From: Patescibacteria group bacterium
GTDB taxonomy: Bacteria; Patescibacteriota; Patescibacteriia; CAIXNZ01
Reading direction: 5' to 3'
NCBI GenBank assembly: GCA_028714455.1
Contig: JAQTMG010000001.1
Span: forward strand, 64,568 to 128,567
Length of the DNA: 64,000 nucleotides
Shown: piece after piece, positions 5,139 through 54,051 of the stretch
Numbering within the stretch: position 1 is the stretch's first letter
Layout: each line of letters starts with the position of its first letter
The notes under the pieces: generated by a model
Seen by the model: the letters and a program-made list of their open reading frames with translations, nothing else
Database searches by the model: none
Told to the model about the DNA's origin: nothing
Program-made: the position numbers and the translations under genes

Positions 5139-7445
5139 TTAAAACTCATTATTCTTTTCAATTTCTTTTGCTTCCTCTTCGGCGTCAACCTCTTCTGATT
5201 CATCATCTGGTAATTCTAATTCTTCGTCTTCACTTTCTTCGTCAACTTCTTCCGAACCCTCATCGTTTGTTGGCAATTCTGCCTCGTTGTCATCAACTTC
5301 TCTTTCAGTCACTAAAATCTCTCTGGGTTTAGCGCCCTCGCCTGGCCCGACAATACCAGCCTCTTCCAGCAAGTCCATCAAACGCGCGGCTCGGGCGTAA
5401 CCGACTTTTAATCTTCTCTGCAAAAATGAAGTGGAAGCTTTGCCGGCTTGCAAAATTATTTCCTTAGCTTCTTCAAAAAGTTCATCGCCCTGATTTGGAT
5501 CAGAAAAATCAACGCTGCCGTCGCCGTTTAAAGATTGGTGTTTTTCCACAACCGCCCGGTCATAGTCGGGTTTTTCGCCGCTTTCTTTAAGGTAATCAAC
5601 CACGCGATTTATTTCTGCATCCGAGAGAAAGGCTCCTTGCAGACGTTTGGGCTTAGAAAGTTCGGCGCTGGTGTAAAGCATGTCGCCGCGGCCCAGAAGT
5701 TTTTCTGCGCCGGCGTGATCCAGGATTGTTCTGGAGTCAGTGATGGAAGCCACGGCAAAAGCGATTCTGCCGGGGATATTGGCTTTAATTAAGCCGGTGA
5801 TGACTTCAACCGATGGCCTTTGTGTCGCCAACACCAAATGGATACCAACGGCGCGAGACATTTGGGCCAAACGTATAATTAGACCCTCAACCTCATGACC
5901 CATGCTGGACATTAAGTCCGCCATTTCATCGACCACAAAAATTATATAGGGCATTTTTTCTTGAGAGATTTTATTAAAGTCATCGATATTTCTTTTGCCC
6001 ATTTTTTCCAAGACAATATAACGGCGATCCATTTCAGCTATGGTCCACTTCAAAGCGTTGACTGTTTTTTTCACGTCAGTGATAACTGGTGTCAGCAGAT
6101 GAGGTATCTCGTTATAAAGCGGCATTTCCACGCGTTTCGGGTCAACGATAATTAATTTTAAAGTGTCAGGACCATTTTGATAAAGTAAACTGGTTATGAC
6201 GGTGTGCAAGCAAACTGATTTGCCCGAACCAGTTTGGCCAGCGACTAATAAGTGCGGCATCTTGCCCAAATCAGCCACCCAGGTATTACCGGCTACATCG
6301 CGACCAAGCGGAATAGTCAGCAAGGTCTTGCGCTGTTTAAATTCCGGACTTTCCAAAAGCTCGCGTAAGCGTACGATGGCCACCGATTGATTGGGCACTT
6401 CAATGCCAACAAGCGACTTGCCGGGAATTGGCGCTTCAATTCTCAATGGGTGAGCGGCCAGGGCTAGGGCCAAATCATCTTGAAGCGCCGTGATGCGAGA
6501 AAGTTTAATGCCTTCGGCTGGTTTTAAAGTATATTGGGTAACTGTCGGGCCAACGCTAATGTCTCCCATCTCAACTGGTATGCCAAAACTCTCCAGGGTT
6601 TTTTGAATTATTTGTTTGTTGGCAGCGATGTTGCCCGAGGTCGGTTTGCTTAACTTGTCATCTAGCAAATCAAGGGGCAAATCTATTTTGTGATAAATCT
6701 TTTTTGTTTTTGGCTCATCGAGCTTGAATTCTTCTTTAGCCGATTCTTTTTCTCTAGTTTCGATTTTTTTGCTGGCAAAAGTAACCTCTTTTTCTTCTTC
6801 ATTTATAGCTTCGTTAGCTTCCTCGTCTTGTTCTTCTTCATTTTCATCGTACTCCTCCTCTCCGCGAGCAAATTTCAATTTTATGTGATAATACCAAATT
6901 GAAAGGCGATCAAAAATTTTGCCAAAAATCGAGCCTGATTCTCTGAAATTATCAATCGAATTATTAATCATTAACAAAATGGAGATGAAAAAAATCGCCA
7001 CCAGCGTGATCAGGGTCGCCCAAAAACCCATCACATTTTGTAAACTGTAGCTTAAAAATAATCCAACGTAACCGCCGCCACGCCCTTCATCAACGGCTAA
7101 GATAGCGTCACTCAATGGAATCACCAAGTGAAAAAGCGCCGTAAAACTCAAAACAAAGAAAAAGAAACCAACATAACTGATAGTGTTTATTTTTTCTTTT
7201 TTATTTAATAATACCCAGCCCCACAAAATTAAAATCACGGGAAAAGCGAATTTTGTCCAGCCCAAAAATAATGACAAAATTTTATCAATCTCTTCGCCCA
7301 CTCTACCCGCCAAATTAAATAAGCCAAGCAAAGAAATGCCGGCTATCGCGAATAAAAATATGATAAAAATCCACTTTTGCGTTTCTGGATGAATTTCTAC
7401 GCGTCTGATGCCATTTTTAGAGTTCCTATTTTTGTTTTTTGACAT
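5139..7445 (-). CDS. ftsK: DNA translocase FtsK/SpoIIIE with N-terminal TM domain, acidic linker and acidic C-terminal tail
   Basis: VAGQTGSGKSV Walker A, a full motor domain, and a gamma-like winged-helix followed by an E/D-rich extension. Confidence 0.9.
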   Translation of the reverse strand: MSKNKNRNSKNGIRRVEIHPETQKWIFIIFLFAIAGISLLGLFNLAGRVGEEIDKILSLFLGWTKFAFPVILILWGWVLLNKKEKINTISYVGFFFFVLSFTALFHLVIPLSDAILAVDEGRGGGYVGLFLSYSLQNVMGFWATLITLVAIFFISILLMINNSIDNFRESGSIFGKIFDRLSIWYYHIKLKFARGEEEYDENEEEQDEEANEAINEEEKEVTFASKKIETREKESAKEEFKLDEPKTKKIYHKIDLPLDLLDDKLSKPTSGNIAANKQIIQKTLESFGIPVEMGDISVGPTVTQYTLKPAEGIKLSRITALQDDLALALAAHPLRIEAPIPGKSLVGIEVPNQSVAIVRLRELLESPEFKQRKTLLTIPLGRDVAGNTWVADLGKMPHLLVAGQTGSGKSVCLHTVITSLLYQNGPDTLKLIIVDPKRVEMPLYNEIPHLLTPVITDVKKTVNALKWTIAEMDRRYIVLEKMGKRNIDDFNKISQEKMPYIIFVVDEMADLMSSMGHEVEGLIIRLAQMSRAVGIHLVLATQRPSVEVITGLIKANIPGRIAFAVASITDSRTILDHAGAEKLLGRGDMLYTSAELSKPKRLQGAFLSDAEINRVVDYLKESGEKPDYDRAVVEKHQSLNGDGSVDFSDPNQGDELFEEAKEIILQAGKASTSFLQRRLKVGYARAARLMDLLEEAGIVGPGEGAKPREILVTEREVDDNEAELPTNDEGSEEVDEESEDEELELPDDESEEVDAEEEAKEIEKNNEF

Positions 7446-7663: not shown

Positions 7664-7736
7664 AGCGGGTAACGGGAATTGAACCCGTATCTCCAGCTTG
7701 GAAGGCTAGCATAATAAGCCATTATACTATACCCGC
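7664..7736 (-). tRNA. tRNA-Gly(TCC)
   Basis: rc: GCGGGTA..CTAGC-CTTCCAA-GCTGG..ACGGG-TTCAATT-CCCGT-TACCCGC-T. Weak, AT-rich D-arm. Confidence 0.6.
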
Positions 7737-7744
7737 ATGATTTA

Positions 7745-7821
7745 TGGTCGGGCTGGTGGGACTCGAACCCACGATCTCTTGGTCCCAAACCAAGCGCGAT
7801 AGCCAGCTTCGCTACAGCCCG
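7745..7821 (-). tRNA. tRNA-Pro(TGG), CCA encoded
   Basis: rc: CGGGCTG-TA-GCGA..TCGC-G-CTTGG-TTTGGGA-CCAAG..GTGGG-TTCGAGT-CCCAC-CAGCCCG-A-CCA. Confidence 0.85.
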
Positions 7822-7894
7822 TCAACAGCAAGAGTCATGAGATATGAGCAAGAGTATAAACTGTTGCTCAAAACTCTAATCTCAAAACTCACAT

Positions 7895-7950
7895 TGCCGA
7901 GGGGGAGAACCCCGTACTATATTTCGCCTTGCTCAATAAGTACGGGGCAG
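7895..7950 (-). pseudogene. truncated 3' fragment of a tRNA-Phe paralog (acceptor CCTCGGC-A) abutting the GC-rich motif
   Basis: rc: CTGCCCCGTAC-TTATTGAGCAAGGCGAAATATAGTACGGGG-TTCT-CCCC-CTCGGC-A. The acceptor 3' strand is complementary to the 5' fragment at 8141-8220. Confidence 0.4.
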
Positions 7951-8068
7951 GTCAGACTCCCGACCCCGCACCATCTCACTGCGTTCGATGTGCGGGGCAG
8001 GCTCGATTTCCTATACTGCCCTCGTCAACTATTTTTAAATTTTCAGACCGGAGTTTATCCCGCACAAA

Positions 8069-8140
8069 TGCCAAGGGGGAGAATCGGACTCCCGACGCAA
8101 GGATTTTCAGTCCTTCGCTCTACCACTGAGCTACCTTGGC
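8069..8140 (-). tRNA. tRNA-Phe(GAA)
   Basis: rc: GCCAAGG-TA-GCTC-AGTGGTA-GAGC-G-AAGGA-CTGAAAA-TCCTT-GCGTC-GGGAG-TCCGATT-CTCCC-CCTTGGC-A. Confidence 0.85.
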
Positions 8141-8220
8141 AAATAAATCCCTGGCATTTGTGCGGGGCTCTACCACTGCCTGCCCACCGAAGCACGAAGT
8201 GCGTAGGTGGGAGCTACCTC
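8141..8220 (-). pseudogene. 5' fragment of a tRNA-Phe paralog (GCCGAGG-TA-GCTC..AGTGGTAGAGC) with a 33-nt hairpin insertion in the D-loop
   Basis: rc begins GGCCGAGGTAGCTC[CCACCTACGCACTTCGTGCTTCGGTGGGCAGGC]AGTGGTAGAGC, followed by CCCCGCAC. Confidence 0.4.
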
Positions 8221-8320
8221 GGCCAGATATAAGTTTGTGTATGAATCGTACGAATCGTATTTTGCGATAAATCTAAAAATACGAATATAATCACTTCTGC
8301 ACACAGACTTATATCTGGCC
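8221..8320. repeat. 100-bp element with 20-bp terminal inverted repeats (GGCCAGATATAAGTTTGTGT ... ACACAGACTTATATCTGGCC), MITE-like
   Basis: 19/20 matching TIRs enclosing an AT-rich 60-bp core with a GAATCGTA direct repeat. Confidence 0.5.
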
Positions 8321-8336
8321 ACGGCCAATTTAATTG

Positions 8337-8376
8337 TGCGCGTGGATGGAATCGAACCATCGACCTCGTCATTACC
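8337..8376 (-). pseudogene. 3' half of a tRNA-Ile paralog (anticodon-loop to acceptor; acceptor CACGCGC-A)
   Basis: rc: GTGCGGGGCAG-GTAATGACG-AGGTC-GATGG-TTCGATT-CCATC-CACGCGC-A. Identical to the intact tRNA-Ile from position ~36 except for the acceptor. Confidence 0.45.
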
Positions 8377-8401
8377 TGCCCCGCACTAAATTTGCTAACT
8401 G

Positions 8402-8475
8402 TGGACGTGGATGGAATCGAACCATCGACCTCGTCATTATCAGTGACGCGCTCTAACCATCTGAGCTACACGTCC
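8402..8475 (-). tRNA. tRNA-Ile(GAT)
   Basis: rc: GGACGTG-TA-GCTC-AGATGGTTA-GAGC-G-CGTCA-CTGATAA-TGACG-AGGTC-GATGG-TTCGATT-CCATC-CACGTCC-A. Confidence 0.85.
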
Positions 8476-8914: not shown

Positions 8915-10406
<1,492 letters not shown>

Positions 10407-10815
10407 CAAATAAAATCTGATTGTAACCGTCAGAAGGATCTCCGCCGAAGGCGGATCCGCCTCTGGCGGAAAACTCTCAAATAAAATGATGATAAGGTTC
10501 ATCACAAAAACCTTCCCCAGTTGGGGAAATAAGGAATTGATTCTATCACTTTTTAGTTGTCAAAGAAGAAAAAACAGGGAAATCCATTGTCCATTAAAGT
10601 ATCCCGCGCGCGGGATTTTTAACAGATCGAATTTCTCTGTTTTTTCTCCTCCCCATCGGAGCTATTGCAAAGATGGGATATCTTTGAAAAATAAATTTTT
10701 TTACTTTTTTGAGAACTTTTTAAAGTTAATTTTAGATACTGGCATTATAAACTTTATTATTTAAGCTGTCAAGGGGTTAAAGCGGCCTTTTAATAAACAA
10801 CTTTTGCACAATAAA

Positions 10816-11571
10816 TTATGGATTATACCTATCCCAAACCATGTCATGAATGGAATTTACGGAATCCGCTACATCTTGATTTTTTATTAAAACAGCAAAG
10901 GGATTTTCTTCTGTAGTAAATATTATAACCATATCATCTAAAACGCCAAAAGATGCCTTGATTGGGTAAATTTTATGGGAGACAACAATAGACTCTCTTA
11001 ATTCTGCTTTGTCTTTTCTTAAAACATCCTTAAGAATGGGCGAATCAATCTGCCCAGACCCAATCATTCTACCACCTATGCCCTTAGAAACCCTTTTATT
11101 AATACATTGAGCTACTTGTTTTGTTCCATGCTGCAAAATCGTTCCTTCTACATTTTCAAATGATTTACCAAATTTTGTTTTGGCATTCTCTAGCCAAATG
11201 TCAGAAGCAATTTGCACGCCTTCTATCCCAGAATAATAGCTAATCGCCAATTTTTTTTCTGGTACACTTATTCTCTCAACTAAATCATCTGTTATCTCCT
11301 CCAGGGTTACCATTTTTCTTTCTAAAAGATAGCGCAGCTGTTTTGGACTTAGGGCCTGATATAATTTGCGTTTCTTCAATTTAAAAATTAACAAAAAACC
11401 CTTATCTACCAAATTTTGAACATGGCGATAAGCTGCCGTGCGGGGAATGCCAGCGCCTTTGGCGAGGTCGGACAATGAAGCTGATTCAAAATTTAAAGCC
11501 GCCCAATACAATTTAGCCTCATAATTATTAAGGCTAAAAACTTTTTTCAATTTTTCCATCTGATTTTCCAT
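10816..11571 (-). CDS. TrmB-family (archaeal-type sugar-regulator-like) winged-helix transcriptional regulator
   Basis: N-terminal wHTH (..LSDLAKGAGIPRTAAYRHVQNLVDKGFL..) typical of TrmB. The C-terminal domain is of unknown function. Confidence 0.6.
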   Translation of the reverse strand: MENQMEKLKKVFSLNNYEAKLYWAALNFESASLSDLAKGAGIPRTAAYRHVQNLVDKGFLLIFKLKKRKLYQALSPKQLRYLLERKMVTLEEITDDLVERISVPEKKLAISYYSGIEGVQIASDIWLENAKTKFGKSFENVEGTILQHGTKQVAQCINKRVSKGIGGRMIGSGQIDSPILKDVLRKDKAELRESIVVSHKIYPIKASFGVLDDMVIIFTTEENPFAVLIKNQDVADSVNSIHDMVWDRYNP

Positions 11572-11588
11572 GGCTATACCATATCAAA

Positions 11589-11660
11589 TGACGCAAATTA
11601 CGTCAAATTTTCAAAGAAGTAAATCGCTAATTTTAGATAAAATACCATGTCATATGACAT
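11589..11660. promoter_or_regulatory. two dyad-symmetric candidate operators in the divergent promoter region
   Basis: TGACG-caaatta-CGTCA (11589-11605) and the perfect 14-bp palindrome ATGTCATATGACAT (11647-11660). Confidence 0.3.
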
Positions 11661-11741
11661 TTATTGTCTACAAAAATTGATATTGCTTAGCGGACCTAAT
11701 ATACTACATTTAAGTGTGGTAATCTAACCGAATATAATTAT

Positions 11742-13121
11742 ATGTCAGAATATTCAAACATCAAAAAAGTTTCTCCTCCCGCCGAATTGCCCACGTACCA
11801 AGAAGAAAATGGTGATATTACTTTTTTTGGCAACACGACATTTAAAGAAGCTTACATAGAGAGGAAGGATGTATTCGGCATCTGGCGCTTTGATCGTCGC
11901 CAGCATATTTATATCATTGGTAAAACAGGAGTTGGCAAAACAAAGCTGATCGAACTCTTGACCAGAGCAGACATACTTGACGGTTTTGGCGTGTGTGTGA
12001 TAGACCCGCATGGCGACCTGATAAATTCTCTTCTCGATTATATTCCGGAAGGCCGATTAAAGGATGTTGTCCTGATTGATCCTACAGACACGAATTTCCC
12101 AGTGGCGTTTAATCCTCTTAAAAAAGTTGCGCCCGAGGCGAGACAGCTGGTGGCGAGCGGCTTACTTGAAGTTTTCCGCAAACAATTTGGCGATTTATGG
12201 ACCTCGCGCCTAGAACACGTGTGCAGATTCACAATTTTGGCGCTGCTAGAGTATGAGGAGGCGACGCTCGCCGATATATCTAAAATGCTCACCAACCCGA
12301 AATTCAGACAAGAAGTAATCCCGCGCATCTCTGATTCGGTTGTTCGCCATTTCTGGTCTCTGGAATTTAACAGCTGGAGCGAACGTTTTGACAACGAAGC
12401 CATCATCCCTCTCGTCAATCGAATGGGCCAGTTTTTGGCAAATCCGCTGGTGCGAAACACTTTCGCGCAAAAGGAAAATAAAATAAATTTTGACGAACTC
12501 ATAAATTCATCCAAAATCATACTTGTTAATCTGTCCAAGGGCATTATCGGCGAAGATAACACTGAACTTTTCGGCAGCATCTTGATTACTTCCATTTATC
12601 AGGCGGCTATGCGCAGGGCAAAGATTCCTAGTTCAGAGCGTTCTGATTTTTATCTCTATGTCGATGAGTTCCAAAACGTAGCGACGCAAACGTTTTTGAA
12701 TCTTTTTGCCGAATCAAGAAAATACGGATTGAATATTACCGTCTCCCACCAATATCTCGGCCAAGTTACCCCAAAAATGCGTGACACCATCTTCGGCAAC
12801 ACTGGGACAATTATTTCATTCCGTTTAGGAGGAGAGGATGCCGAGCGTTTGAACAAAGAATTCGCGCCCGTCTGCAAGGAAGAAGACCTGATCAATCTGG
12901 GTCAGCGTGAATTTGTAATAAAACTTTTAATCGCCGGAAACTCCTACGATCCATTTGCCGGCGAGACGCTAGAAGTGGAAGCCACAAAAACTTCGCACAA
13001 AGATCAGATAATCAACTATTCTCGATCAAAATATTCTCGCCCGATTAATGAACTAGAACAAGAAATGGCAGAGGGAGGCGCGGCAGAAAAAAAGGAGGAC
13101 TTTATAGCCCCGGTAGTTTAA
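11742..13121 (+). CDS. FtsK/HerA-superfamily P-loop NTPase (DUF87/HerA-like or TraD/VirD4/VirB4-like)
   Basis: Walker A IIGKTGVGKT, followed by VIDPHGDL, Walker B YLYVDEFQN, and ..ESRKYGLNITVSHQ.. No TM segments. Confidence 0.6.
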   Translation: MSEYSNIKKVSPPAELPTYQEENGDITFFGNTTFKEAYIERKDVFGIWRFDRRQHIYIIGKTGVGKTKLIELLTRADILDGFGVCVIDPHGDLINSLLDYIPEGRLKDVVLIDPTDTNFPVAFNPLKKVAPEARQLVASGLLEVFRKQFGDLWTSRLEHVCRFTILALLEYEEATLADISKMLTNPKFRQEVIPRISDSVVRHFWSLEFNSWSERFDNEAIIPLVNRMGQFLANPLVRNTFAQKENKINFDELINSSKIILVNLSKGIIGEDNTELFGSILITSIYQAAMRRAKIPSSERSDFYLYVDEFQNVATQTFLNLFAESRKYGLNITVSHQYLGQVTPKMRDTIFGNTGTIISFRLGGEDAERLNKEFAPVCKEEDLINLGQREFVIKLLIAGNSYDPFAGETLEVEATKTSHKDQIINYSRSKYSRPINELEQEMAEGGAAEKKEDFIAPVV

Positions 13122-13130
13122 TTTTTTGTT

Positions 13131-14849
13131 ATGGAAAATACTCCTTTGTTTAATTCTAAAATCAAAGAAATATTGAGCCAGCTCCGTCCGGGAGAGAGGA
13201 CCTGCCAAGAAACAGGGGAACGATATTTAATCCGCGAAGAAGATATCGCTTTCTATAAAAGAATGCTAGTGCCGGCGCCAGTTGTAGCGCCCTGGGTGAG
13301 ACAAAGGAATCTGCTGGCGCACGGATCTCCGCCGGATGAACTCTTTAAAATCAAATCGGCCTTATCTGGCAAAGAAATAATCACCAACATAGGACCATCG
13401 CCTGACGTGCCTGTCTACGCGGAGGATGAATGGTTTTCAGACGTCTGGGATGCGGCCGATTATGGCGTAGACTATAAACCCGGCGAAAGTTTCTTCAAAC
13501 AATTCCACGCCCTAAAGTTAAAAGTGCCTCGTCCCTGCAAACTGCCAGATGAGGGCAGTATTAATAGTCCCTGGGCCATAGGAGGCGTTCACATGAAGGA
13601 CTGTTATATGGTCTCGGCTGGTTACGAATGTGAAAACATCTTATATTCGGCCAGCGCAATTAAAAGTCGGGACTGTATGGAAATATTTTTCTCGGATTAC
13701 TGCGAGCTGGGCTACCAGCTTTTTCAATGCAAACACTGCTACAAATCTTCCTTTTTGGACGATTGCGAAAGCTGCATTAGCTGCACCTTTGGCTTTGATC
13801 TGAAAAATTGCGAAAATTGTTTTGGCTGCATTAATTTGCGCCACAAAAAATATAATTTTTTTAACCAACAGCTGACAAAAGAGGAGTACGAAAACAAAAT
13901 GAACGGCCTTAATCTGGGCTCCAGAAAAGAGTTGAACGAGTGGCAAAAAAAATTCAATGAATTTTATAAAAACAACGCCATAAGGGAAAACCTGCATTTA
14001 AAAAATACGCAAAACGTAGTCGGCGACAATCTAACTCAATGCAACGCCTGCTATAACTGCTTTGACTCCTACAACATCCAGGATTCTGCCAATGTTTTTC
14101 GCGGCATGAATGTCCGAGATAGCCATGACATCATGGGCGGCCTAAACATGGAAAAAAGTATCGGGCTGTGCGCGGTGGATTCATACAACGTAAAATATTG
14201 TACCGAAGCCATCTACAATTCAACCAATTTAGAATACTGCGAACTTTGCTACAATTTAGAGAATTGTTTTGGCTGCGTGGGTCTTAGAAACAAAAAATTT
14301 CACATACTTAACAAGCCATACTCGGCAGATGAATATTGGCAATTAGTTAATAAAATCAAGTATGAGATGCTGGCAAGCGGTGAGTACGGCCAGATTTTGC
14401 CGTTAAAATATTTAATCTACGGCTATAACTTAACCTGGGCGAACATTATCTTTCCCATAAACGAAGCGCGAGCCATGGCCATGAAGCTGCCCTGGCATGT
14501 TCACGAAAAAAACTCTGCTAATAATGGCCTCACGGCAGAATCTTTGCCCGATAATATTAAAGAGGCTGATTCAAAAATTATTGGCTCTTTATTGGTCTGC
14601 TCGGAAACCGGCCGATTATTTAAAATCGTAGAACAGGAATTCGATTTCTATAAAAAGATGAACCTGCCTTTGCCCGTCGCTCATCCCCTGGTCAGGAGAC
14701 AAAAATTATATAAAAAATTAAGAACGCCGATACTCTCCGAGAGCGTGTGCGGTAACTGCAATAAAAAAATAATGATACGCGGTTCAATAGAATCGCAAGT
14801 GGCAAAAAACGTCTGCGGTGATTGTTATTTAAAAATTATTAGCTCGTAA
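13131..14849 (+). CDS. 572-aa cysteine-rich protein with an internal duplicated CxxC module and matching N/C-terminal motifs; function unknown
   Basis: Lies 9 bp after the ATPase. The repeats are ..DCESCISCTFGFDLKNCENCFGCINLRHKKYNFFNQ.. and ..YCELCYNLENCFGCVGLRNKKFHILNK.. The N-terminus (CQETGERYLIREEDIAFYKRMLVPAPVVAPWVRQ) resembles the C-terminus (CSETGRLFKIVEQEFDFYKKMNLPLPVAHPLVRR). Confidence 0.75.
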   Translation: MENTPLFNSKIKEILSQLRPGERTCQETGERYLIREEDIAFYKRMLVPAPVVAPWVRQRNLLAHGSPPDELFKIKSALSGKEIITNIGPSPDVPVYAEDEWFSDVWDAADYGVDYKPGESFFKQFHALKLKVPRPCKLPDEGSINSPWAIGGVHMKDCYMVSAGYECENILYSASAIKSRDCMEIFFSDYCELGYQLFQCKHCYKSSFLDDCESCISCTFGFDLKNCENCFGCINLRHKKYNFFNQQLTKEEYENKMNGLNLGSRKELNEWQKKFNEFYKNNAIRENLHLKNTQNVVGDNLTQCNACYNCFDSYNIQDSANVFRGMNVRDSHDIMGGLNMEKSIGLCAVDSYNVKYCTEAIYNSTNLEYCELCYNLENCFGCVGLRNKKFHILNKPYSADEYWQLVNKIKYEMLASGEYGQILPLKYLIYGYNLTWANIIFPINEARAMAMKLPWHVHEKNSANNGLTAESLPDNIKEADSKIIGSLLVCSETGRLFKIVEQEFDFYKKMNLPLPVAHPLVRRQKLYKKLRTPILSESVCGNCNKKIMIRGSIESQVAKNVCGDCYLKIISS

Positions 14850-15014: not shown

Positions 15015-15785
15015 TCAAGAACTGAACTTCCGGGCGAGCGCAACGCGCAAACCGCCGGGGAAGCCGTAGGCCGAGTGGGTGCCGACACAGAGGCCATTGG
15101 AATTAAAGCAGCCGACAACGATGCAGACGCCAACGAAAGACGTCGAAGCACCCCAATGGTACCAACTCTCGGCAATTCGCTCGCCATCATTAACCATATA
15201 AATGGTCAGGATGGCTTCGGCAAAGACGGCCTCATGGCAGCGTTCGTAGTCGGCACCGAGTTTAGCGATTTTTGCGTCTTGCTTACCACAGTTCAAATTG
15301 GTAAACTGGCCGCGAAAGTTGATGAGGTAATAGCCGGTTTGGGGCATGAAAGTCGCCCACTTGTCCTCGTCGCTCTCGAGCCACCAGTCGTCGTCGTTAA
15401 AACAGGGCAGCTTGGTTTTGTCAACGCCGCGCTTTTCTCTTTGCTCGCGCAGGGAAAGGCCATTGATAAAGACCAGACGCCAGTCGGACTGACCGCTCTG
15501 GTTTTCATTGGCGCACTCGAGCAGGGTTTCTTCACTGTAGCGGATGGTTGCGCTTTTTGGCACTTCAATTTCCCAGGCCTTGCCAGCCTGCTCGGCAATG
15601 ATGACCTTGTTGGCGCCAAGAATGTTGATGGCGCGAACAATGGTCAGCCCCTTGGAAAACTTTTTGGGATTTTCCAGAAAAGCGCCAAGTTCCTCGCCTC
15701 CGACTGTTCCGTCCTTGATCATGCGCATCAGATCTTCCAGTTGCCCAGGTGTTACCGAGCAACCAATGACGACTTTTTTCTTCAT
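15015..15785 (-). CDS. hypothetical protein in a GC-elevated cassette-like unit
   Basis: Balanced composition, unlike the overlapping + ORF. AAAGGAGGAA SD 8 nt before the second ATG (MKKKVVIG..). Its own TTGACA-17-TATTAT promoter lies at about 15833-15862 (minus strand). A terminator hairpin lies at 14935-14985. Confidence 0.6.
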   Translation of the reverse strand: MKKKVVIGCSVTPGQLEDLMRMIKDGTVGGEELGAFLENPKKFSKGLTIVRAINILGANKVIIAEQAGKAWEIEVPKSATIRYSEETLLECANENQSGQSDWRLVFINGLSLREQREKRGVDKTKLPCFNDDDWWLESDEDKWATFMPQTGYYLINFRGQFTNLNCGKQDAKIAKLGADYERCHEAVFAEAILTIYMVNDGERIAESWYHWGASTSFVGVCIVVGCFNSNGLCVGTHSAYGFPGGLRVALARKFSS

Positions 15786-15938
15786 CGCCATTTCCTCCTT
15801 TACGTTTATAGCCCGCCGGCTTATTAATACTTAATAATATCGCAGTTTCACATCTTTGTCAACAATAAAACCACGGTTTATTCGAGGGTTATTAATTATA
15901 AAAAATATTTCCTTTTCCCAATACCCAATTCCAAATAC

Positions 15939-16596: not shown

Positions 16597-16655
16597 TAAG
16601 AGCTTGGAGCCTAGAGCTAAGTTCCCTAAGCCCAGGACCCTAAGCCCTTAGCTTA
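16597..16655. repeat. heptamer tandem repeats (GAGCTAA x4, then CCCTAAG x4)
   Basis: GGGCTAAGAGCTTGGAGCCTAGAGCTAAG followed by TTCCCTAAGCCCAGGACCCTAAGCCCTTAGC, directly downstream (minus sense) of the four-helix-bundle gene. Confidence 0.5.
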
Positions 16656-16996
16656 TTAATAAATGCGATTAATTGTTTACCAAGCTCTTCAGCTTTAATT
16701 ATTAAGTCGCGATGTTCTTGAACTGTTAAATAATTTTCATCAAGGGCAATGTCCAGACATGCCACGACTTCTTCAAGAGAAGTCAACGAAATATATAAAA
16801 ACCTTTTAAAATCTAAATCGCTATTTCTATTTGAACCTTCAGCTATATTTAAAACTACCGAATTTATAGCTCTTCTAACTTGTGAGGTAAGACAAAATGT
16901 CTCGTCCTTCGGGAATTTTTTTGATATACCATAAATTACTTTACGAAAAACCAAAGCTTCTTTATATATTCTAAATTCTCTAAATCTAAATAGCAT
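16640..16996 (-). CDS. four-helix-bundle protein (23S rRNA intervening-sequence protein family)
   Basis: ..YKEALVFRKVIYGISKKFPKDETFCLTSQVRRAINSVVLNIAEGS.R.S..DF.RFL.IS..SLEE.. The N-terminal 22 aa of the ORF are translated repeat DNA; the likely start is MLFRF at 16996. Confidence 0.7.
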   Translation of the reverse strand: MLFRFREFRIYKEALVFRKVIYGISKKFPKDETFCLTSQVRRAINSVVLNIAEGSNRNSDLDFKRFLYISLTSLEEVVACLDIALDENYLTVQEHRDLIIKAEELGKQLIAFINKLRA

Positions 16997-17003
16997 AAAT
17001 TTA

Positions 17004-17043
17004 TTAAGCCCCAAGCCCATAGCTCCGAGCTCAAAGCTAAATA
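17004..17043. repeat. heptamer repeats (AAGCCCC AAGCCCA TAGCTCC GAGCTCA AAGCTAA), inverse of the left-flank units
   Basis: Flank the upstream side of the four-helix-bundle gene. Contain AAGCCC, the complement of the GGGCTT/CCCTAAGCCC units on the other flank. Confidence 0.45.
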
Positions 17044-17106
17044 AATTATACCACATCGGCAAATAAAAAATCTCCGTAATTTTGCGGAGATTTTTTTATT
17101 TTAAAA

Positions 17107-50709: not shown

Positions 50710-51135
50710 TTAACTTCCACCCGTAACTGTTCCTGGCGGTGTTCCCCCGCCACCTCCGCCGCCGACCGATTCCGTTATCGAATTCAAAACAAATGAGGCT
50801 ATCGAATAAGCGGCAATCACGATGATTAATCCGATCACGGCGTACATGATAGTACTTTTTGCCTTTTTAGTTTTGTCTGCTTCTCCCTGGGAAGTCATGT
50901 AAATAAAGCCTCCATATAAAATCAGACCAACAAAAATGATGCCGAGAAGGGTTAGAATTGATTTAATTATCAGCGACGCAACCTGTTGAGGCGGCATATA
51001 TGTGCCACCATAAATTTTTTGGCCAAAGCTGTTGACGTTTTCGCTGATGTTTAGGGCTAGTGACGGTTGAGTTAACAGCAGACAAAAGCCGGTTAAGATA
51101 ATGGGGATGAGTAAGAATTTTAAATTTTTTTTCAT
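50710..51135 (-). CDS. VirB2/TrbC-like pilin paralog P1 (Gly/Pro-rich tail ..GGGGGGTPPGTVTGGS)
   Basis: Signal peptide - helix (IIKSILTLLGIIFVGLILYGG) - MTSQGEADKTKKAK loop - helix - tail. Confidence 0.6.
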   Translation of the reverse strand: MKKNLKFLLIPIILTGFCLLLTQPSLALNISENVNSFGQKIYGGTYMPPQQVASLIIKSILTLLGIIFVGLILYGGFIYMTSQGEADKTKKAKSTIMYAVIGLIIVIAAYSIASFVLNSITESVGGGGGGGTPPGTVTGGS

Positions 51136-51143
51136 AATAAATT

Positions 51144-51647
51144 TTATTTACAGCCGCAAAGATCGCCGGAACAGCAACTCTGCGAGCAACAGCTTGCGCT
51201 GCCCGATTTTCTGTATTGGCAGCACTCGCAGGAATTATAATCAAGCGAACCCGCGTTTTCACATTTCGGATTAAAAGCCGGTTTTCCGCCGGGCGTTTCA
51301 ACCTGGGTTACTATAAAATAAGTTATTGAATAACCGGAGACGATAATTATGATGCCGATGACAGCCGCGATTATCGCGTTTTTGCCTTTCTTTACCTTGT
51401 CTGGTTCACCTTGAGAAGTCATGTACAAAAATCCGCCGTAAATTAACAGCGCCACAAAGATGATGCCGACCAGTCCCAACACGGCCTGTATTATAATCGC
51501 CGCATACTGCTCAACCGAAACATCGGTGAATCCAGATTCTTGCGCCGTGTTGGCTAATCCTTGTCCGAATTGCGAGGCAAAAACCTGATTGACGAGCGGC
51601 AGGGAAAGGGCTAAGGAAATTAAGATAAAGTAAAATGTTTTTTTCAT
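51144..51647 (-). CDS. VirB2/TrbC-like pilin paralog P2 (Cys-rich tail, 11 Cys)
   Basis: ..IIQAVLGLVGIIFVALLIYGGFLYMTSQGEPDKVKKGKNAIIAAVIGIIIIVSGYSITYFIV.. followed by a C-rich tail. Confidence 0.6.
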   Translation of the reverse strand: MKKTFYFILISLALSLPLVNQVFASQFGQGLANTAQESGFTDVSVEQYAAIIIQAVLGLVGIIFVALLIYGGFLYMTSQGEPDKVKKGKNAIIAAVIGIIIIVSGYSITYFIVTQVETPGGKPAFNPKCENAGSLDYNSCECCQYRKSGSASCCSQSCCSGDLCGCK

Positions 51648-51650
51648 AGG

Positions 51651-52034
51651 TTATGGCTTTACCTCGAGGGCGGCCGCGATGAAATATGTTATAGAATAGG
51701 CCGCGACTATTATCAAAAGGCCGATTATGGCGCCGGAAATTATTTTCTTGGCCCCCTCGACCTGTTTTTCATTGCCGGCTGACGTCATCCATCTTATGCC
51801 GCTATAGATTATTAATACCAAAAATATTATGCCGACCAATCCCAACACGGCCTGAATAATGGTGGCGATAAATGAAACTAGATCCGATTGTTGCAATCCT
51901 GCCTGATTAGCCGTGGAATTAATAAATTCCGTGGAATTTCCTAATTGCAAAGTGGCAGATGCGGCTTGAGCAAAAAATAATATAGTCAGGCAAAGCGCCA
52001 ACGATATTATTAAAGGTTTAAAATTTTTAAACAT
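51651..52034 (-). CDS. VirB2/TrbC-like pilin paralog P3 (no tail)
   Basis: Same two-helix core as P2. Its IIQAVLGLVGIIF segment is identical to that of P2. Confidence 0.6.
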   Translation of the reverse strand: MFKNFKPLIISLALCLTILFFAQAASATLQLGNSTEFINSTANQAGLQQSDLVSFIATIIQAVLGLVGIIFLVLIIYSGIRWMTSAGNEKQVEGAKKIISGAIIGLLIIVAAYSITYFIAAALEVKP

Positions 52035-52057
52035 ATAATTTTTTGTATCAACTAATT

Positions 52058-52483
52058 TTAACTTCCGCCGACTACTGTTCCTGGCGGAATGCCACCCGTA
52101 GGACCAGTTGATTGTTCTATGGCCGAGGTGACAAAAAAAGTAATCGCATAGGCACCGACTACGATGACTAACCCTATAACGGCATATTCTAGAATTTTTT
52201 TGGCTTGGCTAATCTTTTTTTCTTCGCCGCCACTTGTCATCCAGAGTACACCCCCATAAATAAATAAAACGACAAAAGCAACGCCCACTATTCCGAGAGC
52301 AACATTGATAATGCCCGCGACAATGGCGGCGGGATCACTTTGTTTAAGGCCGGTCTCTCCGGCTGTTTGCTGAAAAAATCCAGTTACATCCTTAAATGAA
52401 TAAGCAAGACAACTTTGAGAAAAAATTAAAAAACAAAAAACAGCAAGTGAAAAAATTACTATTGTGGTTGTTTTTTTGGACAT
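52058..52483 (-). CDS. VirB2/TrbC-like pilin paralog P4 (Gly/Pro-rich tail ..TGGIPPGTVVGGS)
   Basis: Core ..ALGIVGVAFVVLFIYGGVLWMTSGGEEKKISQAKK.. The tail matches P1. Confidence 0.6.
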   Translation of the reverse strand: MSKKTTTIVIFSLAVFCFLIFSQSCLAYSFKDVTGFFQQTAGETGLKQSDPAAIVAGIINVALGIVGVAFVVLFIYGGVLWMTSGGEEKKISQAKKILEYAVIGLVIVVGAYAITFFVTSAIEQSTGPTGGIPPGTVVGGS

Positions 52484-52485
52484 AT

Positions 52486-52869
52486 TTATTTACCGGCACC
52501 CGAGATGGCCTGGAAAACCAAACTGGTAATCGCATAGGCGGCGCCTAACACTATCGCTCCAATGATGGCCCAGGTAATTATTTCCTTGCCTTTTTTCACC
52601 TGTTCTTCTTTACCGGCTGCGGTCATTATTCTGATTCCGCCGTAGATTATTAGAAATAGAAATAATGAACCGGCAATGGCCAGGGCTGCGCCAGCGATTT
52701 GCCCAAGAAATTGGGCGGCCGTGATATTAATATTCAAACCGGCCTGACCAGCCGTTTCATTTAGGCCGTAACTGTTATCAGCAGCAATCGCCGCGGTTAC
52801 TAAAATAATAGCAAATAATGAAAGTGTTATTAAAAATGGTAATATTTTTTTTAAATATTTTTTTTTCAT
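52486..52869 (-). CDS. VirB2/TrbC-like pilin paralog P5
   Basis: Core ..LFLFLIIYGGIRIMTAAGKEEQVKKGKEII.. Confidence 0.55.
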   Translation of the reverse strand: MKKKYLKKILPFLITLSLFAIILVTAAIAADNSYGLNETAGQAGLNINITAAQFLGQIAGAALAIAGSLFLFLIIYGGIRIMTAAGKEEQVKKGKEIITWAIIGAIVLGAAYAITSLVFQAISGAGK

Positions 52870-52923
52870 AATTTTCGTATTATTTAAGGGTAGACAACCT
52901 GCCTACCCTTAAATAAATTTTAT

Positions 52924-53286
52924 TTACGTTGCGTTCAATATGCTTCCAACGACGAAGTTGGCTATGGCGTAAGCTGACAGTACAATCACTAAGCCGATAA
53001 CGCCTTGGAAAAGAAGTGATTTCGCGCTTTTTACAGCGTCCTCATTCCCCATGGCCGTCATCCATTTAAAGCCGCCGACTAAGATTATGACTATCGCGAT
53101 GATGCCCAAAAGTCCCATCATGACGTTGATAATGCTAGCGACAGTAGCTCTGATGTCTCTCGTGCCTAGGCCGATGGCGGTGGCATAAGAAATACCCACA
53201 TCAATGCTGACTGCGCCGGCGACTTGAGGCAATAAGATGAGGGCAAGCAGGCCCAAGAAGATAGCCGTTGTTATGCTCTTTTTCAT
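52924..53286 (-). CDS. VirB2/TrbC-like pilin paralog P6
   Basis: Likely start at MKKSITT (53286). Core ..LLGIIAIVIILVGGFKWMTAMGNEDAVKSAK.. Confidence 0.55.
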   Translation of the reverse strand: MKKSITTAIFLGLLALILLPQVAGAVSIDVGISYATAIGLGTRDIRATVASIINVMMGLLGIIAIVIILVGGFKWMTAMGNEDAVKSAKSLLFQGVIGLVIVLSAYAIANFVVGSILNAT

Positions 53287-53445
53287 GTTTTTAGTTCCTT
53301 TGATGCTTGGCAAGGCCAAGCAATGGATTATTAATAATTATATAATTCCGCGTTGGCGGGTAATTTTTTAAGTACAATTTATTTATTTCATTATAATATT
53401 TCTGCTAATAAAAGGCAAGATTTGTGTTTTTTACTTCAGCGTTTC

Positions 53446-54030: not shown

Positions 54031-54051
54031 ATGGTTATTTAATTATTTATG

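What the first reader, a model, noticed from the sequence alone, without database searches (positions are those of the whole stretch)
11742..14849. Co-transcribed FtsK/HerA-superfamily ATPase and a 572-aa cysteine-rich protein with an internally duplicated module and duplicated termini
Upstream gene. It is 9 bp upstream of its partner and encodes a 459-aa soluble P-loop NTPase:
- Walker A IIGKTGVGKT;
- the VIDPHGDL box typical of HerA/VirB4/VirD4/TraD-type translocases;
- Walker B YLYVDEFQN;
- an ESRKYG...SHQ arginine-finger-like segment.

Downstream gene. It encodes a 572-aa protein with no TM segments and roughly 40 Cys, arranged as CxxC knuckles. One module is clearly duplicated (..CESCISC-x9-NCENCFGCINLRHKKYNFFNQ-x-EEY.. 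and ..CELC-x4-ENCFGCVGLRNKKFHILNK-x-DEY..). The N- and C-termini also carry the same roughly 40-aa motif (C[QS]ETG[ER]..[YF].I.E[EQ][DE][IF].FYK[RK]M.[VL]P.PV..P.VR.[QR].L).

I cannot place this Cys-rich protein in any family I know. An ATPase of the DNA/protein-translocase superfamily paired with a multi-zinc-ribbon-like partner could be any of:
- a conjugation/secretion coupling module;
- a HerA-type defence system;
- a novel nucleic-acid-handling machine.

The divergent TrmB-family regulator and the dyad operators in the shared promoter region suggest regulated expression.
Basis: partly seen in the sequence, partly recalled or inferred. Interest (0 to 1): 0.65.

Follow-up and report, generated by a model that had tools for sequence, protein, structure and literature searches.

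The report
Coupling ATPase with cysteine-rich solenoid partner
A soluble ATPase of the type that feeds cargo into type IV secretion machines is co-transcribed with a member of a very large, unnamed, Patescibacteria-only family of cysteine-rich beta-solenoid and zinc-finger proteins, which elsewhere forms tandem arrays of up to 11 copies and may be the missing clients of the secretion system these tiny bacteria need to live on their hosts.

Summary
Both ORFs, the 9-nt spacer, the ATPase motifs and both internal duplications are real. The Cys-rich protein has 28 cysteines, not about 40, and most of its central Cys positions swap with Ser/Val/Ile/Leu across the family. Only the C-terminal CxxC...CxxC ribbon is invariant.

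The ATPase is a membrane-anchor-less relative of type IV coupling proteins (DotL, TrwB, Cagbeta by fold). It is about 55% identical across Patescibacteria.

The partner has no Pfam, NCBIfam, PADLOC or PDB match. It belongs to a family of at least 2,400 clusters at 50% identity, and every source-named or titled member I saw was a patescibacterial MAG apart from a few oddly labelled bins.

The ATPase-partner gene pair is conserved, with 0-9 nt gaps, in relatives whose partner proteins are 33-78% identical. More widely, the family forms tandem arrays and is about 10-fold enriched next to:
- two ATPase paralogs, one carrying the same C-terminal zinc ribbon;
- a TM-anchored DUF8128 protein, which is fused to the ATPase in some lineages;
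- TrmB-like regulators.

In one close relative the pair lies directly beside T4SS genes. The window itself holds eight VirB2-like pilin genes.

Best reading: a split coupling-protein module whose clients or adaptors are the Cys-rich proteins. The biochemical function is inferred, not shown.

The parts
10816..11571 (-). TrmB-family winged-helix regulator (251 aa), divergent from the ATPase operon
   Evidence: Pfam TrmB 4e-13 at residues 8-77. Homologous regulators of about 250 aa occur in 15 of 82 related loci, usually divergent and directly upstream of Cys-rich arrays. The same arrangement is seen in L088. It is absent in the closest relative I examined, L091.
11572..11741 (.). Shared divergent control region. 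It holds the dyad ATGACGCAAATTACGTCA (11588-11605), the palindrome ATGTCATATGACAT (11646-11659), the direct repeat ATACCATnTCAnATGAC (11576-11592 and 11642-11658) and a promoter-like site TTGATA-17-TATACT (11677-11705).
   Evidence: ATGACG-N7-CGTCA occurs once in the 64 kb window, with 0 expected by chance. It recurs at the equivalent TrmB/ATPase intergenic position of L088. Operator function is inferred.
11742..13121 (+). Soluble type IV coupling protein-like ATPase (ATP1, 459 aa). It has a nucleotide-binding domain with an inserted all-alpha domain and no TM anchor. Its disordered C-terminal tail ends in ...FIAPVV.
   Evidence: Pfam TrwB_AAD_bind, DUF87, T4SS-DNA_transf and TraG-D_C are all above cutoff. 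AF2 model: pLDDT 86.6. Foldseek PDB: DotL 4e-10, TrwB 4.5e-9 with TM about 0.6, HerA 9e-9, Cagbeta, VirB4. Family mean column identity is 67%, and the tail tip P-x-P-x-[VI] is conserved.
13131..14849 (+). Cys-rich beta-solenoid and zinc-finger protein (572 aa), a member of an unnamed Patescibacteria-wide family
   Evidence: No Pfam, NCBIfam or PADLOC family at E<=1. 725 homologs in the word-indexed search and 5,943 representative clusters at E<=1e-3, of which 2,420 are at E<=1e-30. AF2 model: pLDDT 89.5, pTM 0.90.
13182..13328 (+). N-terminal treble-clef-like module (residues 18-66). The zinc ligand set is degenerate in this protein: only C25 remains.
   Evidence: Homologous to residues 488-536 (hhalign 99.2%). 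In the family the columns are C25 98%, position 28 71% Cys, position 53 73% and position 56 69%. Pfam zf_Tbcl and zf_Tbcl_2 hit 4 and 12 of 49 members.
13578..13916 (+). Repeat module R1 (residues 150-262): Cys-ladder solenoid rungs capped by the highly conserved CFGCxNLRxKKYxFFNxxxxxEEY motif and a helix
   Evidence: R1 against R2: hhalign 99.9%, E=1.4e-34. The lowest column entropy in the protein is at residues 226-255. Model confidence here is only 68-74.
13980..14375 (+). Repeat module R2 (residues 284-415): beta-solenoid with short strands recurring every 6 residues, variable rungs, a conserved CFGCVGLRNKK cap and a helix
   Evidence: DSSP strands start at 320, 326, 332, 338 and 344. The only fold matches, all weak, are to left-handed beta-helix proteins. 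The rungs at 316-360 are the most variable part and the cap at 376-405 the most conserved. Position 391 alternates between Cys (86%) and His.
14592..14735 (+). C-proximal treble-clef-like module (residues 488-535), with only the first Cys retained family-wide; basic (pI 10)
14736..14849 (+). C-terminal CxxC-x18-CxxC zinc ribbon (residues 536-572), the only invariant metal site. It is homologous to the zinc ribbon that follows the ATPase domain in the paralogous ATPase ATP2.
   Evidence: C540, C543, C562 and C565 are 96-100% conserved. hhalign of the ATP2 zinc finger against this segment gives 97.2% and E=3.4e-11, whereas the ATP2 finger does not match the N-terminal module. There is a weak match to the second finger of LIM domains.

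Best explanation
The locus is the core of a Patescibacteria-specific split coupling-protein module.

The 459-aa protein is the soluble motor of a type IV coupling protein (T4CP): a nucleotide-binding domain plus an all-alpha domain. The membrane anchor that T4CPs normally carry at the N-terminus is missing here. In relatives it is supplied by a separate TM-bearing DUF8128 protein, or by a DUF8128 domain fused to the ATPase.

The 572-aa protein is one member of a large family of cytoplasmic scaffolds. Each has two tandem Cys-ladder beta-solenoid modules with variable rungs and highly conserved caps. These are flanked by small treble-clef-like modules and end in an invariant zinc ribbon.

I propose that the Cys-rich proteins are clients of the ATPases, either translocated substrates or substrate adaptors. 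The conserved termini and zinc ribbon would dock on the ATPase complex. The same ribbon is built into the second ATPase paralog. ATP1 ends in a conserved acidic, hydrophobic-tipped tail like the partner-binding tails of TraD and DotL. The diversified solenoid surface would provide target specificity, and the complex would feed the patescibacterial type IV secretion apparatus. A TrmB-like repressor acting at the ATGACG-N7-CGTCA dyad probably controls the operon in this genome.

Shown: the architecture, the family size, the gene linkage and the fold class of the ATPase. Inferred: physical docking, translocation, the link to the T4SS and the regulation.
For: (1) T4CP identity of the ATPase.
- Pfam TrwB_AAD_bind, T4SS-DNA_transf and TraG-D_C are above cutoffs.
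- The best solved-structure matches are DotL (6sz9), TrwB and Cagbeta, ahead of HerA and VirB4.

(2) Conserved operon.
- ATP1 followed by the Cys-rich gene, with 0-9 nt gaps, is seen in L091 (78% identity), L087/L089/L090 (49%), L088 (48%) and L001 (33%).

(3) Wider linkage.
- In 82 distinct loci, 29 hold an ATPase relative within about 16 kb, 15 of them directly adjacent. Among loci of 18 kb or more, 17 of 40 hold one.
- The chance expectation is about 4%. I derived this from about 2 T4CP homologs per genome (5,713 in 2,918 genomes, PMC12102498) and an assumed genome size of about 1 Mb.

(4) Shared domain.
- The zinc ribbon of the ATP2 paralog is homologous to the invariant C-terminal ribbon of the Cys-rich family (Pfam zf_Tbcl_2 on ATP2, and on 12 of 49 family members).

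(5) Membrane anchor in trans.
- The DUF8128 protein has an N-terminal TM region. It recurs in these loci and is fused to the ATPase N-terminus in Peribacteria and Gracilibacteria.

(6) T4SS context.
- In L089/L090 the order is ATP1, Cys-rich, DUF8128, ATP2, TrbL_3/VirB6-like, a 635-aa protein, PrgI (VirB3), TraC-like.
- The window carries eight VirB2-like pilin genes at 50713-54477.

(7) Client-like evolution.
- Tandem arrays reach 11 copies, with 281 copies in 85 loci and some fragmented copies.
- The rungs are variable while the caps and termini are conserved.

(8) Conserved ATP1 tail tip.
- It parallels the TraD-TraM and DotL-adaptor tails. This parallel rests on my own knowledge; Pfam TraG-D_C is described as the TraM recognition site.
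Against: - Most loci, including this window, are not adjacent to virB4 or virB6. The published survey found only 148 of 5,713 patescibacterial T4CP homologs near virB4. It also noted that the t4cp of S. epibionticum was not essential although the T4SS was, so exaptation is possible (PMC12102498).
- Stable zinc-binding solenoids are awkward substrates for a secretion channel that usually needs unfolded cargo.
- The family has one fixed architecture and two near-invariant motifs. That looks more like a machine part or an enzyme than a typical effector repertoire.
- The ATPase is so conserved (about 55% identity phylum-wide) that a housekeeping role is plausible.
- No interaction was modelled or measured.
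Confidence: 0.45

Rival explanations
1. A T4SS-independent cytoplasmic machine. The coupling-protein-like ATPases have been exapted as nucleic-acid or protein translocases or remodellers. Examples would be handling imported DNA or RNA, or chromosome and replication-linked tasks. The Cys-rich proteins would be nucleic-acid-binding or specificity cofactors that use their basic zinc-finger termini.
For: - Most loci sit in housekeeping contexts (rpoA-L17-L13-S9, grpE/dnaK, dnaG-rpoD, trmD, 16S) and not near T4SS genes.
- The published survey itself raises exaptation.
- The terminal modules are basic, with pI 9-10.
- There are weak NCBIfam hits to the archaeal DNA-import ATPases CedD and CedB.
- The ATPase is extremely conserved.
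Against: - The DUF8128 partner carries TM helices, which points to a membrane-associated complex.
- One close relative places the genes directly beside VirB6-like, PrgI and TraC-like genes.
- Tandem arrays of up to 11 diversified copies are unusual for a core nucleic-acid machine.
- No nucleic-acid-binding domain with a known function was detected.
Confidence: 0.25
2. An anti-phage or anti-MGE defence system of the HerA/MADS type. The hexameric ATPase would be the motor, and the arrays of diversified Cys-rich paralogs would be sensors for different invaders.
For: - PADLOC mad8 hit at 3.3e-14 and weaker HerA hits.
- Foldseek matches to HerA from the Sir2-HerA and DUF-HerA defence complexes.
- The paralog arrays have variable surfaces.
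- phrog_5156 hits the ATPase at 9e-56.
Against: - The T4CP structures score better than HerA.
- No nuclease, Sir2, methyltransferase or other effector domain lies in the operon or among its recurrent neighbours.
- The genes are near-universal and highly conserved across the phylum, rather than patchy as defence islands are.
- The NCBIfam HerA_antiphage score is 10.7 bits against an 800-bit cutoff.
- The family is essentially absent from viral contigs.
Confidence: 0.1
3. The Cys-rich protein is an autonomous enzyme or structural protein, and its adjacency to the ATPase has no functional meaning. Candidates are a left-handed beta-helix acyltransferase, a gamma-carbonic-anhydrase-like metalloprotein, or a filament-forming solenoid.
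For: - The only fold matches are to hexapeptide-repeat proteins: gamma-CA, LpxD, GlmU and PglD.
- Strands recur every 6 residues.
- Two near-invariant motifs could be active or assembly sites.
Against: - The fold matches are insignificant (E of 0.05 or worse, TM of 0.2 or less).
- No Pfam hexapeptide hit was found.
- The linkage to the ATPases is about 10-fold above chance and holds with 0-9 nt gaps over a 33-78% identity range.
- The C-terminal ribbon is shared with ATP2.
Confidence: 0.1
4. A radical-SAM/SPASM or ferredoxin-type Fe-S maturase acting on a peptide.
For: Only the abundance of CxxC spacings.
Against: - No radical-SAM, SPASM or ferredoxin family hit in Pfam or NCBIfam, even at E<=1.
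- Most Cys columns are replaceable by S/V/I/L.
- No precursor-peptide gene or CxxxCxxC motif is present.
Confidence: 0.02

Closest known systems
Type IV coupling proteins (VirD4 / TrwB / TraD / DotL / Cagbeta)
   Same: - FtsK-HerA-type nucleotide-binding domain with an inserted all-alpha domain.
- Pfam TrwB_AAD_bind, T4SS-DNA_transf and TraG-D_C are above cutoff.
- The best structural matches are DotL, TrwB and Cagbeta.
- The flexible C-terminal tail has a conserved tip, like the partner-binding tails of TraD and DotL (the comparison rests on my own knowledge).
- In one relative the gene sits beside VirB6-like, PrgI and TraC-like genes.
   Different: - No N-terminal transmembrane domain. A separate or fused DUF8128 protein appears to replace it.
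- No relaxase is present.
- The gene is usually far from virB4.
- Scores are far below the NCBIfam TraD and VirD4 cutoffs.
- Two paralogs are usual per genome, one of them with a zinc ribbon.
Legionella type IV coupling complex (DotL-DotM-DotN-IcmSW-LvgA, PDB 6sz9)
   Same: - DotL is the top structural hit for the ATPase.
- That complex combines a coupling ATPase whose C-terminal tail binds small adaptor proteins with a cysteine-rich zinc-binding subunit, DotN (my own knowledge).
- This parallels an ATPase paired with zinc-ribbon partners.
   Different: - No sequence or fold match between the Cys-rich protein and DotN, IcmS, IcmW or LvgA appeared in the PDB searches.
- The Legionella adaptors are single-copy, whereas the patescibacterial family is expanded into arrays.
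Bartonella VirB/VirD4 with tandem Bep effector arrays
   Same: From my own knowledge: tandemly duplicated, uniformly built paralogs lie next to a coupling ATPase. A conserved, positively charged C-terminal module serves as the coupling-protein-dependent signal, and the rest of each protein diversifies. Here the C-terminal modules are conserved and basic, and the solenoid rungs vary.
   Different: - The domains are entirely different: there is no FIC or BID domain.
- Secretion is not shown.
- The arrays are often distant from any T4SS genes.
HerA-based systems (HerA-NurA; Sir2-HerA / DUF4297-HerA defence; MADS mad8)
   Same: - Same ATPase superfamily.
- Pfam DUF87 is above cutoff.
- PADLOC mad8 hit at 3e-14.
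- Foldseek HerA hits from 1e-8 to 1e-4.
   Different: - The T4CP structures rank higher.
- No HerA partner nuclease, Sir2 or methylase is present.
- The NCBIfam HerA_antiphage score is 10.7 bits against an 800-bit cutoff.
- The gene shows core-like conservation.
Left-handed beta-helix (hexapeptide-repeat) proteins
   Same: - Short strands recur every 6 residues in the R2 module of the model.
- The only fold hits, all weak, are gamma-CA, LpxD, GlmU and PglD.
   Different: - E-values are 0.05 or worse.
- There is no Pfam Hexapep hit.
- The Cys/Ser ladder has a spacing of 3.
- There are two modules, each capped by a CFGCxNLRNKKY motif that no described family carries.
Pfam zf_Tbcl (PF13451) and zf_Tbcl_2 (PF23477), 'probable treble clef' zinc fingers
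   Same: - 4 and 12 of the 49 aligned family members hit these models.
- ATP2 paralogs carry zf_Tbcl_2.
- The ATP2 finger aligns to the family's C-terminal ribbon at 97% probability.
   Different: - The window protein itself hits neither model at E<=1.
- Its N-terminal copy has lost three of its four Cys.
- The function of these Pfam domains is unknown, and no paper in the library mentions them.

Membership tests
Type IV coupling protein (VirD4/TraD/TrwB) | FtsK-HerA-type P-loop domain with Walker A, Walker B and an arginine finger | tested here: met
   The motifs are present and invariant in the 36-sequence alignment. Foldseek matches TrwB, DotL and Cagbeta with probability 1.00.
Type IV coupling protein (VirD4/TraD/TrwB) | All-alpha domain inserted in the nucleotide-binding domain | tested here: met
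   Pfam TrwB_AAD_bind scores 31.6 bits against a 20.5-bit cutoff, over residues 53-343. The AF2 model has a helical insert at about residues 131-241. TM is about 0.6 to TrwB over more than 400 columns.
Type IV coupling protein (VirD4/TraD/TrwB) | N-terminal transmembrane anchor | tested here: not met
   The maximum 19-residue hydropathy is 1.46, and the protein starts about 55 residues before Walker A. In relatives a TM-bearing DUF8128 protein is encoded nearby or fused to the ATPase. No DUF8128 gene is in the window.
Type IV coupling protein (VirD4/TraD/TrwB) | Genetic association with a T4SS (virB4, virB6 and others) and/or a relaxase | tested here: inconclusive
   The window has a VirB2-like pilin array 36 kb away but no virB4, virB6 or PrgI detectable by tblastn. 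Relatives L089 and L090 have the pair contiguous with TrbL_3-like, PrgI and TraC-like genes. No relaxase was seen. The literature reports only 148 of 5,713 homologs near virB4.
Type IV coupling protein (VirD4/TraD/TrwB) | Score above the curated NCBIfam cutoffs for TraD/VirD4 equivalogs | tested here: not met
   SXT_TraD scores 50.8 bits against 366, and conju_CD1115 scores 43.3 against 250.
HerA helicase / HerA-based defence | N-terminal HAS barrel plus a partner nuclease, Sir2 or DUF4297 in the operon; score above the HerA_antiphage cutoff | tested here: not met
   HerA_antiphage scores 10.7 bits against 800. The neighbours are a TrmB-like gene, the Cys-rich protein, an unknown 258-aa ORF and trmD. 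HerA structures rank below the T4CPs.
MADS (mad8) | mad8-like ATPase together with the other mad genes, including a methyltransferase | tested here: not met
   mad8 hits at 3.3e-14 over part of the profile. None of the three neighbouring proteins hits any MADS model.
Hexapeptide-repeat left-handed beta-helix proteins | Pfam Hexapep repeats and a significant fold match to an LbH domain | tested here: inconclusive
zf_Tbcl / zf_Tbcl_2 treble-clef zinc fingers | Two CxxC pairs (four ligands) and a match to the Pfam model | tested here: inconclusive
   The C-terminal ribbon has all four Cys and is homologous to the zf_Tbcl_2 finger of ATP2. The N-terminal module keeps one Cys in four. The window protein hits neither Pfam model at E<=1, whereas 16 of 49 relatives do.
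Radical-SAM / SPASM / ferredoxin-type maturase | CxxxCxxC or SPASM Cys clusters, a Pfam or NCBIfam match, and a cognate peptide gene | tested here: not met
   No such family at E<=1. The Cys columns are poorly conserved.

The most novel reading that the evidence does not exclude
The Cys-rich solenoid family is the effector or cargo repertoire of the essential patescibacterial type IV secretion system, which has been sought for some time. In this reading, diversified beta-solenoid proteins are recognised through their invariant C-terminal zinc ribbon and treble-clef modules by a split coupling protein (DUF8128 anchor plus ATP1 and ATP2). They are then delivered to, or displayed toward, the host bacterium. 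The tandem arrays would record an arms race with hosts.
Probability: 0.25. Interest if true: 0.85.

Novelty: new variant of a known kind. Interest (0 to 1): 0.66.

Why it matters
Patescibacteria are a large share of bacterial diversity and live attached to other microbes. Their T4SS is essential for epibiotic growth in the one genetically tractable species (PMC12857230, PMC12102498). What it moves is unknown. The roughly two coupling-protein homologs per genome have no assigned partners.

This locus ties those ATPases to three things:
- a specific, very large and undescribed protein family, which can take up 21 kb of a roughly 1-Mb genome;
- a candidate membrane anchor, DUF8128;
- a shared zinc-ribbon docking module.

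That turns an open question into concrete binding, localisation and knockout experiments. It also flags a new solenoid and zinc-finger architecture that is absent from Pfam and the PDB.

Tried and rejected
- Foldseek against the PDB and against BFVD gave nothing at E<=1e-3.
- A profile search of PDB sequences gave only a LIM-like match to the C-terminal ribbon, at E=0.03.
- Plain self-BLASTP did not detect the internal repeats. Profile-profile comparison was needed.
- I first assumed the ATP2 zinc finger matched the N-terminal module of the Cys-rich family. hhalign showed it matches the C-terminal ribbon instead.
- The IMG/VR scan found one partial hit only, so a phage or MGE origin was rejected.
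- Literature searches returned nothing that describes this family or its link to the ATPases. I searched for the family, for zf_Tbcl, PF13451 and PF23477, for DUF8128, and for CPR paralog arrays.
- The local Pfam copy lacks DUF8128 and did not reproduce the weak TrbL_3 hit. Those two labels rest on precomputed annotations.
- The 404-aa gene upstream of ATP2 in L003 is not a DUF8128 homolog.
- Other recurrent neighbours are housekeeping genes without an obvious functional link: ribosomal proteins, an ABC transporter, alaS, murC and a CutA-like gene.

Full report
**Observation**

Both lie on the + strand, in the same frame, with a 9-nt spacer and no terminator-like site between them.

In a 36-sequence alignment of homologs their core residues are invariant: G60 K61 G63 G65 K66; D88 P89 H90 G91; Y304 Y306 D308 E309 F310; E324 R326 K327; H336 Q337. 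Neither protein has a TM-like segment.

The Cys-rich protein has 28 cysteines with 11 CxxC spacings, not about 40.

Both claimed duplications are real.
- Residues 18-66 against 488-536 give 99.2% probability and E=1e-19 in profile-profile comparison.
- Residues 150-262 against 284-415 give 99.9% and E=1.4e-34.
- An unrelated pair of segments gave 0.6%.

**The ATPase**

Pfam places it in the type IV coupling protein group. TrwB_AAD_bind, DUF87, T4SS-DNA_transf and TraG-D_C are all above their cutoffs but weak. NCBIfam TraD and VirD4 models hit far below their cutoffs.

An AF2 model (pLDDT 86.6) matches DotL of the Legionella coupling complex best (6sz9, 4e-10). TrwB follows (4.5e-9, TM about 0.6), then HerA, Cagbeta and VirB4.

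The protein lacks the N-terminal membrane anchor of T4CPs. The family is very conserved, at about 55% identity across Patescibacteria and 67% mean column identity. NCBI names it 'type IV secretion system DNA-binding domain-containing protein'.

A 2025 survey counted 5,713 such VirD4-like homologs in 2,918 Patescibacteria genomes. Only 148 were near virB4, and the authors raised the possibility of exaptation (PMC12102498).

The window also encodes a genuine FtsK at 5142-7445, so this protein is not the cell's FtsK.

**The Cys-rich protein**

It hits nothing in Pfam, NCBIfam or PADLOC at E<=1. It nevertheless belongs to a very large family.
- 725 homologs in the word-indexed search.
- 5,943 representative clusters at E<=1e-3, of which 2,420 are at E<=1e-30.

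Every named or titled member I saw was a Patescibacteria MAG, apart from three bins titled Gammaproteobacteria or Pseudomonadota. The representative library carries no taxonomy, so the restriction to this phylum rests on those named members only.

The AF2 model is confident overall (pLDDT 89.5, pTM 0.90). The R1 module is weaker, at 68-74.

The architecture, from N- to C-terminus, is:
- A treble-clef-like module. It has CxxC...CxxC in about 70% of the family. Here only C25 remains.
- A conserved alpha/beta region.
- Two homologous solenoid modules. Their short strands recur every 6 residues. Each is capped by the family's most conserved motif, CFGCxNLRNKKYxxxNxxxxxEEY, followed by a helix.
- A second treble-clef-like module, degenerate in the whole family.
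- An invariant CxxC-x18-CxxC ribbon.

The central Cys columns are typically 25-85% Cys and swap with S/V/I/L/A. That is what one expects of solenoid core or ladder positions, not obligatory zinc knuckles. One position in the R2 cap alternates between Cys and His, which hints at a second metal site.

**Genomic context across relatives**

The ATP1 then Cys-rich gene order, with 0-9 nt gaps, is kept in four sets of relatives:
- L091: partner 78% identical.
- L087/L089/L090: partner 49%, ATPase 71%.
- L088: partner 48%.
- L001: partner 33%.

In 82 distinct loci fetched around family members:
- 59 hold two or more copies, and arrays reach 11 copies in 21 kb. In total there are 281 copies in 85 loci.
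- 29 hold an ATPase relative within the DNA held for the locus (mean 16 kb). In 15 of these it is directly adjacent.
- Among loci of 18 kb or more, 17 of 40 hold an ATPase relative.

With about two ATPase genes per genome and an assumed genome size of about 1 Mb, chance would give about 4%.

Two ATPase subfamilies occur.
- ATP1 is the window's type. It ends in an acidic linker and a conserved ...EP[LI][IV] tip.
- ATP2 is 42-45% identical to ATP1 and longer. It has a zinc finger after the ATPase domain and a long disordered tail.

The ATP2 finger is homologous to the C-terminal ribbon of the Cys-rich family (97.2%, E=3.4e-11). It is not homologous to the N-terminal module.

A third recurrent neighbour is a TrmB-like regulator of about 250 aa, homologous to the window's 10816-11571. 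It occurs in 15 loci, usually divergent and directly upstream of an array. It is absent in the closest relative I examined.

A fourth recurrent neighbour is DUF8128. This is a protein of about 420 aa with N-terminal TM helices. It is stand-alone in several loci and fused to the N-terminus of the ATPase in Peribacteria and Gracilibacteria (E=3e-22). The fusion junction corresponds to the conserved PPxELP motif at the start of the window ATPase.

In L089 and L090 the gene order is ATP1, Cys-rich, DUF8128, ATP2, TrbL_3/VirB6-like, a 635-aa protein, PrgI (VirB3-like), TraC-like. There the module is contiguous with a T4SS cluster.

The window itself has no detectable virB4, virB6 or PrgI. It does carry eight tandem VirB2-like pilin genes at 50713-54477. 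Such pilin arrays are described as a hallmark of the essential patescibacterial T4SS (PMC12857230).

The family is essentially absent from IMG/VR contigs. Its other neighbours are housekeeping genes.

**Regulation**

The 170-bp divergent region holds:
- the dyad ATGACGCAAATTACGTCA at 11588-11605;
- the perfect palindrome ATGTCATATGACAT at 11646-11659;
- a 17-nt direct repeat;
- a promoter-like site 36 nt upstream of the ATPase start.

ATGACG-N7-CGTCA is unique in the window, with 0 expected by chance. It recurs in the equivalent intergenic region of L088. Repression by the TrmB-like protein is a reasonable inference but is not shown. It is not a universal feature of the module.

**Interpretation**

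Four things are shown: a conserved operon, a wider conserved neighbourhood, the T4CP fold of the ATPase, and a zinc ribbon shared between ATP2 and the Cys-rich family.

I infer that DUF8128 plus ATP1/ATP2 form a split coupling protein, and that the Cys-rich proteins are its clients. The evolutionary pattern fits either a substrate repertoire or a set of specificity adaptors: fixed termini and caps, variable solenoid rungs, tandem arrays and fragmented copies. The closest functional analogies, drawn from my own knowledge, are the Bartonella VirD4-Bep arrays and the DotL tail with its adaptors and the Zn-binding DotN.

Confidence in a real functional partnership is high, about 0.85. Confidence in the T4SS-client mechanism is moderate, about 0.45.

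The main rival, at about 0.25, is a T4SS-independent cytoplasmic role for exapted ATPases. It is favoured by the usual distance from virB4 and by the housekeeping contexts. A defence system (about 0.1) and an autonomous solenoid enzyme (about 0.1) are less likely. An Fe-S maturase is effectively excluded.

**Novelty**

The ATPase family is known and counted in the literature but has no assigned function. I found no description of any of the following in the searchable literature or in the domain libraries:
- the Cys-rich family;
- its tandem arrays;
- its linkage to both ATPase paralogs, to DUF8128 and to TrmB-like regulators;
- the shared zinc ribbon.

I rate the finding a new variant of a known kind: a coupling-protein module built around a partner protein family that no domain library describes.

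Noticed in passing
window 50713-54477 (- strand): Tandem array of eight small (120-194 aa) paralogs with N-terminal hydrophobic leaders. All score above the Pfam T4SS_pilin gathering cutoff (E from 1e-8 to 2e-11), and most also hit TrbC/VirB2. This looks like the VirB2-like pilin array reported for patescibacterial T4SS loci, yet no virB4, virB6 or PrgI gene was detectable in the window.
   Followed up: partly
L087/L089/L090 (e.g. L089 9769-11025) and L008, L012, L028, L043, L078; fused in L011, L018, L047, L054, L064, L069, L076, L077, L082: DUF8128 proteins of about 420 aa with N-terminal TM helices recur next to the ATPase paralogs. In Peribacteria and Gracilibacteria they are fused to the ATPase N-terminus, without the TM part. 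This may be the missing membrane anchor of a split coupling protein. No copy is in the window.
   Followed up: partly
window 13080-13118 (ATPase C-terminus) and ATP1 orthologs in L008, L009, L012, L028, L036, L037, L043, L064, L065, L069, L070, L078, L080, L082: ATP1 orthologs end in a low-complexity acidic linker followed by a conserved hydrophobic tip (...EPLI, ...EEPIV, ...FEMPLI; in the window ...FIAPVV). It resembles the partner-docking tails of TraD, DotL and SSB.
   Followed up: partly
L050 7939-8829, L032 1171-2109, L060 14769-15656, L085 539-1432; split copies at L017 2696-4445 and L046 16392-18055: Some arrays contain shorter copies that cover only about residues 120-420 of the query, that is the solenoid core without the zinc-finger termini. 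Others contain copies split into two pieces. These may be a truncated subfamily or pseudogenes, suggesting birth-and-death evolution.
   Followed up: no
window 15015-15791 (- strand) and 10816-11571 (- strand), compared with L091: The 258-aa ORF downstream of the Cys-rich gene has no family hit in any library. Both it and the TrmB-like regulator are absent from the otherwise syntenic closest relative (16S - ATP1 - Cys-rich - trmD). Both therefore look like lineage-specific insertions flanking the pair.
   Followed up: partly
window 11742-13118: The ATPase matches phrog_5156 strongly (9e-56, positions 415-806 of an 824-position profile). This is a phage protein family of unknown function, so related ATPase domains exist in larger phage proteins.
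   Followed up: no
window 8916-10413 (-), 7664-8475 (-), 16640-17062 (-): A complete 16S rRNA gene is followed by four tRNAs, with no 23S rRNA detected anywhere in the 64 kb window. A 140-aa ORF beside trmD is homologous (same blastp cluster) to 124-aa ORFs found in five related loci. From memory, both look like 'four-helix-bundle / 23S rRNA intervening-sequence' proteins. I did not run a family search on this ORF.
   Followed up: no
L003/L025 9476-9982, L058 15287-15790 and three other loci: A second type of small winged-helix regulator (PaaX_M-like, about 168 aa) recurs beside Cys-rich arrays in Paceibacteria-type loci. In L003 the array sits between grpE and dnaK.
   Followed up: no
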